64,000 nt of DNA from an uncultured Pseudomonadota bacterium (lineage in GTDB: Bacteria; Pseudomonadota; Gammaproteobacteria; Burkholderiales; JALYOK01), in contig CADEHE010000003.1 of assembly GCA_902826775.1 (NCBI GenBank), forward strand, positions 431,892 to 495,891, written 5' to 3'. Below the pieces are notes generated by a model. That model saw only the letters and a program-made list of their open reading frames with translations. It was not told where the DNA came from and searched no databases. Positions within the stretch are counted from its first letter, which is position 1; each line of letters starts with the position of its first letter. The position numbers were made by a program, and so were the translations under genes. Below, piece by piece: positions 55,801-58,900 of the stretch.

Positions 55801-57827
55801 TGGTGATTGCCAACATCCAATACCAACCCTTCGGCCCCGCCCGAAGCTGGACGTGGGGCAACGGCACGGGCTTTAGCCGCGCCTTTGATTCCGACGGGCG
55901 AATCGCCAGCCACAGCCTTGGCGCCACCACCAAGACGCTCGGTTACGATCCCGCCAGCCGCATCCAAGCCATCACCGACAGCGCCAACCCGAGCCGCAAC
56001 ACCACTTACGGCTACGACGAGTTAGATCGCCTCATCAACAGCAGCAGCACGGCGATGCGCAACTACAGCTACGACGGCGTCGGTAATCGCTTGACGCAAA
56101 GCGGGTTGAACAACGCCACCTACAGCTACGCCGCCAACAGCAACCGCTTGCTTGGGGTGGCTGGCAGCAACGCCAAGAGCTACAGCTACGACGCTGCCGG
56201 GAACACAACCGCCGATGGCGTGAACAGCTTCACTTACGACGCTAGAGGCCGGCAAACGATCACCACCACTGCCAGCGGCAACGTCCTGCACGGCATCAAC
56301 GCCCTGGGTCAGCGCGTCTATAAGAGCGTAACGGCGGGCGATACGGTGTTCTACTACGCCCCGGATGGCAAGCTGCTGGCGGAGAGCGACGCCCAAGGCA
56401 CAGCGAAGAAAGAATACCTCTACCTAGGCGATCAACCCATTGCGCTGTGGGCGCAAACGGCGGGCAGCTGCATCAACAGCAACGAGCTGCGGGTGGATAG
56501 CGGCACCACCTTCAGCGCCTTCAATAGCTTGGAGCGCCTGGAAGTCAGAGGCGGCAAAGCCGGCACGGCCGATTGGGAAGTGGGCTTGGGCAACAACACG
56601 CAAACGAGCGGGCAGTTCGTGAACGGGCATCTGAACTGGGTGAACAATAAGGTCTATGCCTGGACGCTAACCTACAACGGCCAAGGTGCGGCCACCATCA
56701 CTGTGACCGATAACGCAACCACCGTCCTCACCAAGACCTGGAACCAGGGCATGGATGTCGGTAATGCGCTTAAGTTCTACGTGAAGAGCAGTGCCGGCAT
56801 CGGCGCGGGCAACAAGATCGCGGTGACCATCGATACGATTCAAGGCCAGGCGGCGTTCGGCACGCTGCAGACGGCGGGCGACAACTTCTTTAGTGAGCAG
56901 GCGCTGCATTACGCCATTCCGGCAACCGGTGCGGGAATGACGATCACCGGCGCGATGAAGCTGACCTTCACGGGCAGTGCGCCGCCTACCGGATCGCGGC
57001 TTAACTTCACCGCCACGGCGGGGAACGTCACCTGCCAAGGCGCGCAGAGCGGGCCAAGTACGGATCTTTACTACGTGCATGCGGATCACTTGAACACGCC
57101 GAGGAGCATCACCACCGCCGACACACAAAACAAGGAGGTGTGGCGTTGGGAGAATGAGGATGCCTTCGGCGACAATCAAGCCAATGAAGATCCGGACGGC
57201 GATGGCACGAAGCTGGAGTTCAATCTGCGCTTCCCGGGGCAGTACTTCGATAAGGAGTCGAAGACGCATTACAACTACCATCGCGACTATGAGCCGAGCA
57301 CCGGGAGATACATTCAGAGTGATCCTATCGGTTTGAAAGGCGGACTTAACACTTATGCCTACGTCCATGGCAGCCCGACTTCCTTAGTTGATCCTCTCGG
57401 TCTGCGTGTCGAAGGAACCTGGATCCAGCGCCCCTTCCCAACGGTCTACTCTGTCCGCGTTCCAATAGGCAATGCACGCCGCCCGCAGAATTGGTGGCAG
57501 ATTTGGCGCCACGGAGGTTCCTACGGTGCTATGGAGCATTTGGTCAACGTTGAGGCCGGATTTGATTGGAAGATTAAGTGCACAGATACGAAAACCTGCA
57601 AGTCCTGGGAGATAGGAGGATCTGAACGGGCGCAATTTGATATCTGGGTACCAATCCGTACACCCGCGATTCCAAGGGTCGGCTTTTATCTCTCGTTGTC
57701 TAACATCACCTATAGTCTGCTCATCCGTCCGGCAACTGAGATTGCGCGCAATAAGGTCGCGACCCATGTAGACAACATCATGAAGTTGTCGCCGGATGTG
57801 CTCTGCAGGAATATGCCTCGGCTATAG
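52863..57827 (+). CDS. RHS/YD-repeat polymorphic toxin with Sec signal peptide and unrecognised C-terminal toxin domain
   Basis: The RBS GGGGGAGGA precedes the ATG. Signal 'MRTWVIVLCALGLVSGIANA'. There are dozens of YD repeats, such as 'YTYGYDANENLTSVSY' and 'YSYDSQGNLKTVTD'. Core-domain end 'RFPGQYFDKESKTHYNYHRDYEPSTGRYIQSDPIGLKGGLNTYAYVHGSPTSLVDPLGL', followed by a 140-aa tail. Confidence 0.92.
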   Translation: MRHRIMRTWVIVLCALGLVSGIANAAERAIIKYAPALLPNTNTASYFNTLEAACQEYAKRLNQGGGQYRVVGSVVTTPAQYQSVTSGPYVNGLITAGNYQCRLLAAGATAPTLAGANGAGFCGSKFVFDGVNPYGNCACPSGSTEINGACHAPNLGSTARAPAPVSSSAPARPQACQSQGPTQFGNPVHGATGNKYQSESDYASADGALRFERHYNSQGPEYGRRPMGALWRHSYDARLERITDTLLKAYRANGQVIVFAKSGTAWNATAEVSDRLSETATGFSLINGNEDIEYYNLGGQLSRIQSPSGQELNLIYSDANTASAIAPLPGLLIRVEDSFARALSLRYDENLRIVELTDSAGNQYTYGYDANENLTSVSYPDATPQDPNDNPKRLYHYEDSRFPNALTGITDENGTRFATYAYDAQARAISSEHAGGVMRYLLSFNADGSSSVTDPLNTARSYSFQTILGAIRNANESQPCPSCGGSNIAARSFDANGNVSAATDFNGNQSTYVYDLARNLELSRTEAAGTAQQRSITTEWHPNWRLPTKLTEPNRVTEWSHDAQGNVLTHKVTDSATGLSRSSSYTYNAIGQVLTADGPRTDVMDVTTYTYYPNDAGQGNKRGMLASVSNALGHTVLITDYDAHGRALSMTDANGLVSSMTYDARGRLTSRTVGSETTVFEYDGAGQLIKVTLPDASFVRYSYDAAHRLTQILDHLGNKIVYTLDAMGNRTREDVYFPNGTLAQTHSRTFDALNRLHQEIGALNQTTTYSYDSQGNLKTVTDPLGRATTHGYDALNRMNKVTDALSGITLYDFDANDRIRQVTDPRGLATVYSYNGLDDLLQQLSPDTGTTHNTYDSAGNLATTQDARGEITRYSYDALNRVSSMSYGTTTVSFTYDQGAYGRGRLTGMTDATGATTWEYDAQGRLVTHTQRTGATLTKTMRYAYNNAGQLISLTYPSGRVMEYVYSNGQVSEVRSGAQVVIANIQYQPFGPARSWTWGNGTGFSRAFDSDGRIASHSLGATTKTLGYDPASRIQAITDSANPSRNTTYGYDELDRLINSSSTAMRNYSYDGVGNRLTQSGLNNATYSYAANSNRLLGVAGSNAKSYSYDAAGNTTADGVNSFTYDARGRQTITTTASGNVLHGINALGQRVYKSVTAGDTVFYYAPDGKLLAESDAQGTAKKEYLYLGDQPIALWAQTAGSCINSNELRVDSGTTFSAFNSLERLEVRGGKAGTADWEVGLGNNTQTSGQFVNGHLNWVNNKVYAWTLTYNGQGAATITVTDNATTVLTKTWNQGMDVGNALKFYVKSSAGIGAGNKIAVTIDTIQGQAAFGTLQTAGDNFFSEQALHYAIPATGAGMTITGAMKLTFTGSAPPTGSRLNFTATAGNVTCQGAQSGPSTDLYYVHADHLNTPRSITTADTQNKEVWRWENEDAFGDNQANEDPDGDGTKLEFNLRFPGQYFDKESKTHYNYHRDYEPSTGRYIQSDPIGLKGGLNTYAYVHGSPTSLVDPLGLRVEGTWIQRPFPTVYSVRVPIGNARRPQNWWQIWRHGGSYGAMEHLVNVEAGFDWKIKCTDTKTCKSWEIGGSERAQFDIWVPIRTPAIPRVGFYLSLSNITYSLLIRPATEIARNKVATHVDNIMKLSPDVLCRNMPRL
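56332..56943 (+). repeat. 612-bp direct repeat, copy 1 (inside the rhs core region)
   Basis: It matches 58195-58806 at a constant offset of 1863 nt. In the segments I compared there is a single mismatch (56936 a versus 58799 c). Identical shadow ORFs in the six-frame track agree (56424..56630 = 58287..58493). Confidence 0.9.
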
Positions 57828-57835
57828 GAGCGGAC

Positions 57836-58135
57836 ATGGCGAAGAGATGCGCGAACTGCGGCGCCGAATCGCTTTCCTTTGGTCAATTAGCGAAGTTGGC
57901 AATTGGCGGGACAACGAAGTGCCGCGCTTGTGGAGCGATTCTTGAGAGGACCATGTGGATACATTTGCTGATGAGCATGCTTCTTGTCTTGTTGACTCTT
58001 GTTCTCTTTGTCGTACTTGGCAATCTGCTGGGCATGCTTGGCATTGCTCTCGCTTTCCTCATTCCGCTGATCATTGAAGTGTCGAGCATCTATTGGCATC
58101 CGATATCGGTGCGCCAATCAAAGGTCGCAAAGTAG
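57836..58135 (+). CDS. candidate RHS immunity protein: N-terminal zinc ribbon plus two TM helices
   Basis: The ATG lies 6 nt after AGGAG and 8 nt after the rhs stop. 'CANCGA-x20-CRACGA', then 'MWIHLLMSMLLVLLTLVLFVVLG' and 'GMLGIALAFLIPLIIEV'. Spot counts give 42-55% GC. Confidence 0.6.
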   Translation: MAKRCANCGAESLSFGQLAKLAIGGTTKCRACGAILERTMWIHLLMSMLLVLLTLVLFVVLGNLLGMLGIALAFLIPLIIEVSSIYWHPISVRQSKVAK

Positions 58136-58194
58136 AAATAAATGGGGACAGACTTAGCTATCGCGGAATTCGCAAACGGTTTAGTTGTGCGCCC

Positions 58195-58900
58195 CGGCGG
58201 GCGATACGGTGTTCTACTACGCCCCGGATGGCAAGCTGCTGGCGGAGAGCGACGCCCAAGGCACAGCGAAGAAAGAATACCTCTACCTAGGCGATCAACC
58301 CATTGCGCTGTGGGCGCAAACGGCGGGCAGCTGCATCAACAGCAACGAGCTGCGGGTGGATAGCGGCACCACCTTCAGCGCCTTCAATAGCTTGGAGCGC
58401 CTGGAAGTCAGAGGCGGCAAAGCCGGCACGGCCGATTGGGAAGTGGGCTTGGGCAACAACACGCAAACGAGCGGGCAGTTCGTGAACGGGCATCTGAACT
58501 GGGTGAACAATAAGGTCTATGCCTGGACGCTAACCTACAACGGCCAAGGTGCGGCCACCATCACTGTGACCGATAACGCAACCACCGTCCTCACCAAGAC
58601 CTGGAACCAGGGCATGGATGTCGGTAATGCGCTTAAGTTCTACGTGAAGAGCAGTGCCGGCATCGGCGCGGGCAACAAGATCGCGGTGACCATCGATACG
58701 ATTCAAGGCCAGGCGGCGTTCGGCACGCTGCAGACGGCGGGCGACAACTTCTTTAGTGAGCAGGCGCTGCATTACGCCATTCCGGCAACCGGTGCGGGCA
58801 TGACGACTTTGGCGATCAACGATCCGATTGGATTGCAAGAGAGTTGAATACCTTTGCAAACGTCAGCCAAACGCCTAAATTCTGTCGCGTATCGGCTTAA
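58195..58900 (+). pseudogene. orphan rhs C-terminal fragment, frameshifted and truncated
   Basis: It begins with copy 2 of the 612-bp repeat, then reads '...TTLAINDPIGLQES*'. After a shift of one base the next frame continues 'ELNTFANVSQTPKF...*', matching the main gene's 'GLNTYAYVHGSPT'. No toxin tip or immunity gene follows. Confidence 0.75.

What the first reader, a model, noticed from the sequence alone, without database searches (positions are those of the whole stretch)
56332..58900. Near-perfect 612-bp direct repeat flanks the toxin tip and immunity gene; the downstream copy heads a decayed orphan rhs
Positions 56332-56943 and 58195-58806 are identical in every segment I compared, apart from one mismatch near the end. 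The offset is a constant 1863 nt.

The second copy continues as '...NDPIGLQES*'. Shifting one base restores 'ELNTFANVSQTP', which parallels 'GLNTYAYVHGSP' in the main gene. The orphan is therefore a frameshifted, truncated rhs end with no toxin.

Homologous recombination between the repeats would delete exactly 1863 bp, removing the toxin tip and immunity gene and leaving a disarmed rhs. The near-identity implies very recent duplication or ongoing gene conversion.
Basis: seen in the sequence. Interest (0 to 1): 0.6.

Follow-up and report, generated by a model that had tools for sequence, protein, structure and literature searches.

The report
Vestigial Rhs orphan behind a 612-bp repeat
A bacterial toxin gene (rhs) is followed by a broken leftover copy of its own 3' part. 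This is the usual scar left when such genes swap toxin tips by recombination, so the repeat is real but ordinary.

Summary
Positions 56332-56943 and 58195-58806 form a 612-bp direct repeat with one synonymous mismatch (56936 A / 58799 C) and a constant offset of 1863 nt. Independent metagenome contigs support three of the four repeat junctions, and one contig crosses all of copy 2, so an assembly artefact is unlikely.

Copy 1 lies inside a 1654-aa Rhs/YD-repeat toxin that carries what looks like a Sec signal peptide. It encodes the last YD repeat and about 80% of an inserted lectin-like choice-of-anchor W (chW) domain. Between the copies lie the rest of that domain, the Rhs core end, a low-GC toxin tip and a zinc-ribbon membrane immunity gene.

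Copy 2 heads a vestigial orphan. It has an internal deletion of about 120 codons, then DPIGLQ, then a 1-nt frameshift and about 20 more recognisable codons. No toxin or immunity gene follows.

This is the known Rhs C-terminal displacement architecture (Jackson 2009; Koskiniemi 2014). Two related Betaproteobacteria MAG loci show the same handle repeats (708 bp at 99.86%; 924 bp at 96.4%).

Recombination between the copies would delete 1863 bp and leave a truncated 1373-aa Rhs. It would also remove the immunity gene, so the deletion should be selected against.

Verdict: a new member of a known kind, of low to moderate interest.

The parts
52863..57827 (+). Main rhs gene, 1654 aa. Order of features: apparent Sec-type signal peptide, DUF6531, YD-repeat shell, inserted choice-of-anchor W domain, Rhs-associated core, C-terminal toxin.
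   Evidence: ORF and translation. Pfam RHS_repeat E 3e-84 with 11 stretches, and DUF6531. NCBIfam YD_repeat_2x, Rhs_assc_core (aa 1434-1514, 79 bits) and choice_anch_W (aa 1219-1383). The signal peptide (MRHRIMRTWVIVLCALGLVSGIANA|AE) was read by eye; no predictor was run.
56332..56943 (+). Repeat copy 1, the 'handle'. It encodes codons ~1157-1360 of the main Rhs: the last YD repeat (GDTVFYYAPDGKL...YLYLGDQPIAL) and the first ~160 of ~200 residues of the chW domain.
   Evidence: 611/612 identity to copy 2; coordinates in the protein.
56460..57062 (+). Choice-of-anchor W domain inserted in the Rhs between the shell and the core end. All-beta, with a concanavalin-A-like lectin fold.
   Evidence: NCBIfam NF041928, 54.1 bits against a cut-off of 45. 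AlphaFold2 model pLDDT 90.8 with 13 strands. Best Foldseek PDB matches are ConA-type lectins, E ~1e-5, TM 0.45-0.52.
57063..57389 (+). Rhs-associated core end (DLYYVHADHLNTPR...RYIQSDPIGLKGGLNTYAYV...DPLGL). GC3 starts to fall here.
   Evidence: GC3 0.68 against 0.80 in the shell.
57390..57827 (+). Polymorphic toxin tip, 145 aa, of no described family. GC 0.53, GC3 0.60.
   Evidence: No Pfam or NCBIfam hit. Only 3 homologues in 5.8 billion proteins; two carry Rhs core-end sequence and the third begins at the DPLGL motif. Composition.
57836..58135 (+). Putative immunity gene, 99 aa: N-terminal CxxC...CxxC zinc ribbon plus a long hydrophobic C-terminal half read by eye as two transmembrane helices.
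   Evidence: Weak zinc-ribbon hits. A homologue with the same CxxC...CxxC layout (27% identity, E 8e-7) sits unannotated directly after the toxin homologue P0122 in L023 at 7881-8144.
58136..58194 (+). 59-nt AT-richer spacer (GC 0.475) between the immunity stop codon and repeat copy 2.
   Evidence: Not significantly similar to the spacers in related loci.
58195..58806 (+). Repeat copy 2: the core-homology handle of the orphan. The reading frame is open throughout. No ATG; the possible starts are TTG 58185 and GTG 58209.
   Evidence: Spanned whole by the independent contig L001. No sigma-70-like promoter found in 57600-59300.
58807..58900 (+). Vestigial orphan tail: TLAIN-DPIGLQ, then a 1-nt deletion frameshift, then (E)LNTFANVSQTPKFCRVSA*. 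It is the remnant of an Rhs core end after an internal deletion of about 120 codons.
58901..59151 (.). Unassigned DNA between the orphan tail and the acyl-CoA dehydrogenase gene. No toxin or immunity remnant is recognisable.
   Evidence: Six-frame translation, and blastx against the 120 family proteins, gave only chance-level matches.

Best explanation
The locus is an Rhs polymorphic-toxin gene followed by a vestigial 'orphan', also called a dissociated tip. It was produced by C-terminal displacement.

How it arose (inferred). A cassette made of a core-homology handle, a toxin tip and an immunity gene recombined into the resident rhs through the handle. In the Jackson model this is a single crossover of a circular handle-tip-immunity molecule, here 1863 bp long. 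The result is a handle on each side of the new tip and immunity gene, with the previous 3' end pushed downstream into a silent position.

How the displaced end decayed (shown). It lost about 120 codons internally, from the end of the chW domain to just before DPIGL. It then suffered a 1-nt frameshift and lost its toxin and immunity gene.

Why the handle looks different from the tail (shown, with an inferred cause). The handle is 99.8% identical to the main gene and still an open frame, while the adjoining tail is strongly diverged. The two parts therefore have different histories. Either the insertion came very recently from a near-identical donor, or the main gene overwrote the handle by gene conversion. 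Which of these happened is not resolved.

What the repeat can do now (inferred). The two copies are a substrate for homologous recombination. One crossover would excise 1863 bp, probably as a circle, and leave a 1373-aa Rhs without its core end, toxin or immunity gene. That allele should be disfavoured where kin deploy the toxin.
For: 1. The repeat is real: 611/612 identity at offset 1863. Independent contigs support three of its four junctions.

2. The main gene is an Rhs toxin: YD repeats, Rhs_assc_core and the DPxGL motif.

3. The tip is compositionally foreign. GC3 is 0.80 in the shell and handle, 0.68 in the core end and 0.60 in the toxin and immunity gene. Neighbouring host genes are at ~0.76.

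4. The toxin and immunity gene appear to travel together, because homologues of both are adjacent in L023.

5. The orphan tail is an Rhs core-end remnant with a 1-nt deletion. At DNA level it is only marginally similar to the main gene's own core end (local score 14, equalled by the best of 300 shuffles), whereas the handle is 99.8% identical. The orphan is therefore a mosaic, not a simple recent copy.

6. The same architecture recurs in related chW-Rhs loci. L004 has a 708-bp handle repeat at 99.86%, followed by a core end at 79%. L003 has 924 bp at 96.4% in two to three modules. Core-end vestiges lie downstream in L004, L012, L022, L023 and L024.

7. The literature describes this layout. Core fragments of dissociated tips are near-identical direct repeats of the upstream core, and a circular intermediate is proposed to explain displacement without loss of the old tip (PMC2935791). 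In Salmonella LT2, 522 bp at 95% identity supports main/orphan recombination that deletes rhsI-main (PMC3967940).
Against: - No close relative of this locus was found. The best match in genome contigs is 55% identity, and metagenome contigs gave nothing close. The ancestral state, the donor and the order of events are therefore inferred, not observed.
- A defining part of a classical orphan, a distinct intact toxin with its immunity gene, is absent. The 'former tip' reading rests on about 90 nt of recognisable remnant.
- One mismatch in 612 nt cannot separate gene conversion from a recent insertion.
- No recombinant allele or circle was observed.
- The junction at 56331/56332 has no independent contig support.
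Confidence: 0.8

Rival explanations
1. Local tandem duplication. The 1863-bp unit (handle, tip, immunity gene) duplicated in place by illegitimate or unequal recombination, and most of the second copy was then deleted. No foreign cassette was involved.
For: The two handles are 99.8% identical, as expected for a young duplication. The unit length equals the offset. GC3 shows no break at 56943 in copy 1.
Against: The sequence after copy 2 is an rhs core-end remnant that is strongly diverged from the main gene's core end (score 14, reached by shuffles). It is closer to another lineage's core end, L005, at 34/45 nt. A diverged rhs end therefore had to be downstream already, and this model needs that orphan plus two further events. 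The tip's low GC3 also points to imported DNA.
Confidence: 0.1
2. Assembly artefact or population mixture. The two-copy layout is a mis-join of two alleles, one with the tip and one with the decayed end, or of a chromosome and a free circle.
For: The window apparently comes from metagenome-derived data, because its sequence recurs in the ERR30892xx assemblies. A 612-bp repeat is longer than typical short reads. De Bruijn contigs break at the repeat.
Against: L001 is one contig running immunity, spacer, whole copy 2, tail and acyl-CoA dehydrogenase. It comes from a slightly different strain, with 3 SNPs further downstream. The immunity-to-handle junction is seen in L002 from 7 samples. The SNP is linked to the exits as the window shows: A leads to the tip and C leads to the tail.
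Confidence: 0.03
3. The downstream handle is maintained for a function. It could be a landing pad that captures incoming circular cassettes. It could allow reversible excision and export of the toxin-immunity cassette. It could also be an expressed ~212-aa fragment containing most of the chW domain.
For: The frame stays open over 204 codons and the only difference is synonymous. Near-perfect handles recur in an unrelated lineage, L004. Gene callers predict a 212-aa product.
Against: One difference in 612 nt carries no selection signal. No promoter-like site was found and there is no ATG start. The encoded chW fragment lacks its last two strands, so it should not fold. The tail's decay is what neutral loss would give. 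Recency or gene conversion explains the identity without any function.
Confidence: 0.07

Closest known systems
Salmonella Typhimurium LT2 rhs-main / rhs-CT-orphan locus (STM0291/STM0292; Koskiniemi et al. 2014, PMC3967940)
   Same: A full-length rhs with its immunity gene is followed on the same strand by an orphan that begins with core sequence shared with the main gene (522 bp at 95% there; 612 bp at 99.8% here). Homologous recombination across that homology fuses main to orphan and deletes the main tip and rhsI-main. The orphan lacks its own initiation signals.
   Different: The Salmonella orphan carries an intact toxin and immunity pair, so recombination switches toxins. Here the orphan has neither, so recombination can only disarm. 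The Salmonella Rhs is linked to a T6SS. This one has an apparent Sec signal peptide, and no PAAR, VgrG or T6SS domain turned up in the ORFs checked. Here the homology lies in the last YD repeat and an inserted chW domain, upstream of the core end.
Dissociated rhs tips and the C-terminal displacement model in Enterobacteriaceae, e.g. Serratia marcescens Db11 SMA1610-1616 (Jackson et al. 2009, PMC2935791)
   Same: Partial-core fragments downstream of an intact rhs appear as large direct repeats nearly identical to the upstream core. Tips have lower G+C. The model proposes a circular core-fragment-plus-tip intermediate that integrates by homologous recombination and pushes the old tip downstream. 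Vestigial fragments are common.
   Different: This is a different Rhs clade. Its relatives are Betaproteobacteria MAGs, and it has a chW insertion and an apparent Sec signal. The exchanged unit seems to include the Rhs core end itself: GC3 falls from ~57063, and in L004 identity drops to 79% in the core end. In the enterobacterial genes the switch is at the PxxxxDPxGL motif.
Orphan cdiA-CT/cdiI modules of contact-dependent inhibition systems (Poole et al. 2011, PMC3150448)
   Same: Arrays of displaced toxin/immunity modules lie downstream of the main gene. Each is headed by a stretch homologous to the main gene, which allows recombination.
   Different: The delivery protein is different (a two-partner-secretion filament, not a YD shell), and those orphans usually retain functional toxin/immunity pairs.

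Membership tests
Rhs / YD-repeat polymorphic toxin (main gene 52863-57827) | Multiple YD/RHS repeats forming the shell | tested here: met
   Pfam RHS_repeat E 3e-84, 11 stretches. TIGR01643 YD_repeat_2x E 1.7e-47.
Rhs / YD-repeat polymorphic toxin (main gene 52863-57827) | Rhs-associated core ending in the DPxGL motif, followed by a variable C-terminal domain | tested here: met
   TIGR03696 Rhs_assc_core, aa 1434-1514, 79.3 bits against a cut-off of 32.5. DPIGL at 57321 and DPLGL at 57390. The 145-aa C-terminal domain has only 3 homologues; two carry Rhs core-end sequence.
Rhs / YD-repeat polymorphic toxin (main gene 52863-57827) | Cognate immunity gene immediately downstream | tested here: inconclusive
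   A 99-aa zinc-ribbon membrane protein lies 8 nt downstream. A homologue follows the toxin homologue P0122 in L023. Protective activity was not tested.
Rhs / YD-repeat polymorphic toxin (main gene 52863-57827) | T6SS linkage (PAAR/VgrG). Typical of many Gram-negative Rhs but not defining. | tested here: not met
   No PAAR, VgrG or T6SS domain in the Rhs or in the ORFs scanned. The upstream neighbour is a subtilase S8, and the N-terminus looks like a Sec signal peptide.
Rhs orphan / dissociated tip (58195-58900) | Lies directly downstream of a full-length rhs and its immunity gene, on the same strand | tested here: met
   It starts 59 nt after the immunity stop codon, on the + strand.
Rhs orphan / dissociated tip (58195-58900) | Begins with a partial core nearly identical to the upstream gene, forming a direct repeat | tested here: met
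   612 bp, 611 identical.
Rhs orphan / dissociated tip (58195-58900) | Lacks the N-terminal delivery region and its own initiation signals | tested here: met
   The open frame extends no further upstream than 58185. There is no ATG, only TTG and GTG candidates. No promoter-like site was found. Expression itself was not tested.
Rhs orphan / dissociated tip (58195-58900) | Carries a distinct C-terminal toxin after DPxGL, plus its own immunity gene | tested here: not met
   Only DPIGLQ and about 20 frameshifted codons remain, and nothing is recognisable in 58901-59151. It is therefore a vestigial orphan, not a functional orphan module.
Choice-of-anchor W domain (NCBIfam NF041928) | Score above the curated cut-off of the family model | tested here: met
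   54.1 bits for the isolated domain and 49.0 bits within the full protein, against a cut-off of 45.

The most novel reading that the evidence does not exclude
The intact, near-identical downstream handle is not a mere relic. In this Sec-type, chW-bearing Rhs clade the segment 'last YD repeat plus chW domain' would be kept homogenised as a dedicated recombination site. Handle-tip-immunity cassettes would excise through it as small circles (1863 bp here) and be captured through it. The vestigial orphan would then act as a standing landing pad. The recurrence of 96-99.9% identical handles in unrelated MAG loci (L003, L004) is compatible with this reading. So are the relatives in which the same module is a free-standing gene with its own signal peptide.
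Probability: 0.1. Interest if true: 0.55.

Novelty: new member of a known kind. Interest (0 to 1): 0.3.

Why it matters
The finding mainly documents that the C-terminal displacement and orphan architecture, worked out in Enterobacteriaceae, also operates in a rare and unstudied Rhs clade. This clade has an apparent Sec signal peptide and a lectin-like choice-of-anchor W insertion, and its known relatives are Betaproteobacteria MAGs.

Two details differ from the classical case. The homology handle sits upstream of the Rhs core end. The exchanged cassette seems to include the core end itself.

The locus offers a clean, small substrate (612-bp repeats, 1863-bp unit) for measuring rhs tip excision or loss in natural populations. 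It does not challenge current understanding.

The more interesting lead is a side observation. In relatives the same chW, core-end and toxin module is a separate gene with its own signal peptide, placed directly after a shell gene that stops at the shell/chW boundary.

Tried and rejected
- Close relatives of the locus. The genome-contig scan with a chW alignment gave a best match of 55% identity. The metagenome-contig scan with the handle-chW-core protein gave one distant hit. Exact look-ups of the full Rhs and of the subtilase found nothing on record. The ancestral or donor state could not be reconstructed.
- A first chW alignment (A2) was too diverse for pattern design.
- Deletion allele or circle.
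- Spacer 58136-58194 against related loci: no similarity above shuffles.
- 58901-59151: nothing beyond chance in six frames or by blastx against family proteins.
- Promoter and terminator scan of 57600-59300: no promoter-like site, and one terminator-like site inside the toxin-coding region, below the number expected from shuffles.
- Rfam and tRNA scans of the whole window: nothing.
- Pfam and NCBIfam on the toxin tip: no family.
- A mosaic junction in the main gene at 56943 was considered and rejected. GC3 is unchanged across it (0.79, then 0.825), and identity to L005 does not drop.
- Mobile-element involvement was considered. No transposase or integrase domain was found in the ORFs checked around the locus.

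
Full report
**1. Observation**

The window contains a direct repeat at 56332-56943 and 58195-58806. It is 612 nt long with 611 identical positions, no gaps and a constant offset of 1863 nt.

The single difference is 56936 A versus 58799 C. It is synonymous: GGA to GGC, both glycine. Identity ends abruptly at both ends. The self-BLAST of the window reports only two other, much weaker repeats.

The repeat is unlikely to be an artefact of one assembly, because Logan contigs from an ERR30892xx metagenome series reproduce it.
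- L001 (ERR3089238) is one 2144-bp contig equal to window 57268-59411. It crosses the immunity gene, the spacer, all of copy 2, the tail and the start of the next gene. Its only differences are three SNPs further downstream, so it comes from a slightly different strain.
- L002 (seen in 7 samples) equals 56906-58224. It covers the exit from copy 1 through the tip and immunity gene into copy 2.
- L006 and L008 begin at 58769, and L002 begins at 56906. Each start is exactly 30 nt before the SNP, which is the behaviour of a k=31 graph at a collapsed repeat with two exits.

Only the junction at 56331/56332 lacks independent support.

**2. What the pieces are**

*The main gene.* The ORF 52863-57827 encodes a 1654-aa Rhs protein. 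Its features are:
- 11 RHS-repeat stretches (E 3e-84) and DUF6531;
- YD_repeat_2x and an Rhs-associated core at aa 1434-1514;
- an N-terminus that looks like a Sec signal peptide (MRHRIMRTWVIVLCALGLVSGIANA|AE). This was read by eye; no predictor was available.

There is no PAAR domain. The upstream neighbour is a subtilase S8. The other large ORFs that were scanned gave only transport, metabolic and peptidase domains.

*The inserted domain.* Between the last YD repeat (...EYLYLGDQPIAL) and the core end (DLYYVHADHLNTPR...) sits a ~200-aa insertion.
- It passes the NCBIfam cut-off for the choice-of-anchor W (chW) domain: 54.1 bits against 45.
- It models confidently as an all-beta domain (pLDDT 90.8).
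- Its best PDB matches are concanavalin-A-type lectins, with moderate TM-scores of 0.45-0.52.
- The domain family is rare. It has 179 cluster representatives among 1.84 billion at E <= 0.001.

*What the repeat encodes.* The repeat covers codons ~1157-1360. That is the last YD repeat and the first ~160 residues of the chW domain.

*What lies between the copies.*
- The last two chW strands.
- The core end, with DPIGL at 57321 and DPLGL at 57390.
- A 145-aa C-terminal domain with no family assignment. It has only three homologues in 5.8 billion proteins. Two of them carry Rhs core-end sequence, and the third begins at the DPLGL motif.
- A 99-aa protein with a CxxC...CxxC zinc ribbon. Its hydrophobic half I read as two transmembrane helices.

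An unannotated homologue of this small protein (27% identity, E 8e-7, same CxxC...CxxC layout) lies directly after the toxin homologue P0122 in L023. This supports a cognate toxin-immunity pair.

*Composition.* GC3 is 0.80 in the shell, 0.79 in the repeat and 0.825 in the rest of the chW domain. It falls to 0.68 in the core end and to 0.60-0.61 in the toxin and immunity gene. Neighbouring host genes are at ~0.76. The imported part therefore seems to begin at about 57063, not at the right end of the repeat.

**3. The orphan**

Copy 2 is an open frame that continues as ...GAGMT-TLAIN-DPIGLQES*.
- DP[IL]GL occurs only three times in all six frames of the 64-kb window. Two are in the main rhs. The third is here, in frame with the handle.
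- The shifted frame reads ELNTFANVSQTPKFCRVSA*. This fits the family motif DPIGLxGGxNTYxYVxxxP.
- At DNA level the tail matches the core end of the closest relative (L005, encoding P0005) at 34 of 45 nt. The single 1-nt gap falls inside that relative's G-run encoding GG.
- Against the main gene's own core end the tail is only marginally similar. The local score is 14, about 3.7 SD above shuffles, and the best of 300 shuffles equals it.

Three conclusions follow.
- (a) The orphan has lost about 120 codons internally, from the end of the chW domain to just before DPIGL.
- (b) It has a frameshift, and it has no toxin or immunity gene. Nothing is recognisable in 58901-59151.
- (c) Its 99.8%-identical handle and its strongly diverged tail have different histories.

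GC3 does not change across 56943 in the main gene. The right end of the repeat is therefore best read as the orphan's deletion breakpoint.

No promoter-like site and no ATG start precede the orphan.

**4. Relatives**

No close relative of the locus exists in the collections searched. The chW-Rhs family does show the same architecture elsewhere.
- L004 (uncultured Burkholderiales MAG, GCA_964617435.1) has two modules sharing a 708-bp handle at 99.86%. Identity then drops to 79% in the core end.
- L003 (GCA_022843725.1) has two to three modules sharing 924 bp at 96.4%.
- Short core-end vestiges lie downstream of tips in L004, L012, L022, L023 and L024.

Near-perfect handles and decayed remnants are thus a regular feature of these loci.

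**5. Mechanism**

The layout is what the C-terminal displacement model of Jackson et al. (2009) predicts. In that model, core fragments of dissociated tips are near-identical direct repeats of the upstream core. A circular molecule carrying a core fragment, a tip and any intervening genes integrates by homologous recombination. The old tip is pushed downstream rather than lost (PMC2935791).

Here the unit would be 1863 bp: 612 nt of handle plus 1251 nt of tip, immunity gene and spacer.

It would delete 1863 bp and give a 1373-aa product ending ...GAGMTTLAINDPIGLQES*. That product lacks the last chW strands, the Rhs-associated core, the toxin and the immunity gene.

In Salmonella LT2, 522 bp at 95% identity is enough for main/orphan recombination. 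That study points out that losing rhsI-main makes recombinants sensitive to siblings (PMC3967940). By the same logic the deletion allele here should be counter-selected wherever the toxin is in use.

What is shown:
- the repeat;
- three of its four junctions in independent assemblies;
- the identity of the parts;
- the decay of the orphan;
- the mosaic handle/tail pattern;
- the recurrence of the architecture in relatives.

What is inferred:
- the order of events;
- a circular intermediate;
- whether the identity reflects a very recent insertion or gene conversion;
- whether recombination is occurring now.

**6. Rivals**

- *Local tandem duplication followed by deletion.* This fits the identity of the handles. 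It still needs a pre-existing diverged rhs end downstream, and it does not explain the foreign composition of the tip. Confidence about 0.1.
- *Assembly or population artefact.* L001 and the SNP-linked exits argue against it. Confidence about 0.03.
- *A maintained function for the downstream handle.* This is not excluded, but no evidence supports it. One synonymous difference carries no selection signal, the encoded chW fragment is incomplete, and no expression signals were found. Confidence about 0.07.

**7. Verdict**

The feature is a new member of a known kind: a vestigial Rhs orphan with a core-homology repeat. It sits in an unusual Rhs clade with an apparent Sec signal peptide and a chW insertion. 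Interest is low to moderate.

The side observation of split or free-standing 'signal peptide, chW, core end, toxin' genes in relatives is more unusual. It deserves its own follow-up.

Noticed in passing
L003 6523-11374; L025 1-4610 (also L026): Split Rhs in relatives. The shell ORF stops (...EYIYLGDAPVAVIQ* in L003...ADYIWLTDQPVSMFR* in L025) exactly where the window's Rhs runs on into the chW domain. A separate gene starts 13-14 nt later and encodes a signal peptide, chW, the Rhs core end and a toxin. In L003 the downstream orphan (P0014) carries the same signal peptide, so each module could be translated and exported on its own.
   Followed up: partly
L024 4310-5920 (P0044, Burkholderiales MAG GCA_033720275.1): A free-standing 536-aa protein with a signal peptide, chW, Big_7, an Rhs core end and a PLA2-like toxin. 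No YD-shell gene lies within ~4 kb upstream or 8 kb downstream. A core-end vestige sits at 6327-6524. About 17 of the 120 hits have a signal peptide directly before chW.
   Followed up: partly
window 56460-57062: The Rhs carries an inserted choice-of-anchor W domain with a ConA-like lectin fold, between the shell and the core end. The domain family is rare, with 179 representatives among 1.84 billion. In many long proteins (1300-3700 aa) it lies at the extreme C-terminus.
   Followed up: partly
window 52863-52950 and 50170-52197: The Rhs starts with what looks like a Sec signal peptide rather than PAAR. It sits directly after a subtilase S8 gene with a fervidolysin-like prodomain. No T6SS domain turned up in the large ORFs that were scanned.
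   Followed up: partly
window ~56300: The GC skew of the coding strand changes from about -0.1 to -0.27 along the YD shell to about 0 to +0.1 from the start of the repeat onward, while GC3 stays ~0.8. It may reflect amino-acid composition (YD repeats against the Gly/Ala-rich chW), but this was not tested.
   Followed up: no
L004 6599-7306 / 8596-9303, and 10446-10526: An uncultured Burkholderiales MAG has two intact chW-core-toxin modules sharing a 708-bp handle at 99.86%. No full-length rhs lies upstream in the contig; an inositol monophosphatase gene precedes them. A core-end vestige and Y1 transposase genes lie downstream.
   Followed up: partly
window 59283, 59328, 59380 versus L001: The ERR3089238 strain variant is identical to the window over 57268-59282 (tip, immunity gene, orphan). 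It then has 3 SNPs within ~100 bp at the start of the acyl-CoA dehydrogenase gene.
   Followed up: no
L023 7881-8144: An unannotated ORF directly after the toxin homologue P0122 encodes a zinc-ribbon protein with a hydrophobic C-terminal half, homologous to the window's immunity protein (27% identity, E 8e-7). The locus also holds several rhs core-end vestiges and an rve integrase.
   Followed up: partly
window 47020-47242 / 49576-49798 and 47384-49300 (-): A 223-bp direct repeat at 89% identity. One copy is in the rhodanese part of an ArsR-rhodanese gene (46597-47262). The other is in a small rhodanese-like ORF (49465-49803). They flank a 638-aa minus-strand ORF with no Pfam or NCBIfam hit. 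By eye that ORF carries PAP2 / vanadium-haloperoxidase-like motifs (SHPAYGAGHA...GGVHWRTD).
   Followed up: partly
window 40315-40448: An imperfect tandem repeat with a 48-nt period, 2.8 copies and 80% matches (TTCTTCGCAGCGGGCTTCTTTGCC...). The reverse strand would encode a Lys/Ala-rich repeat.
   Followed up: no
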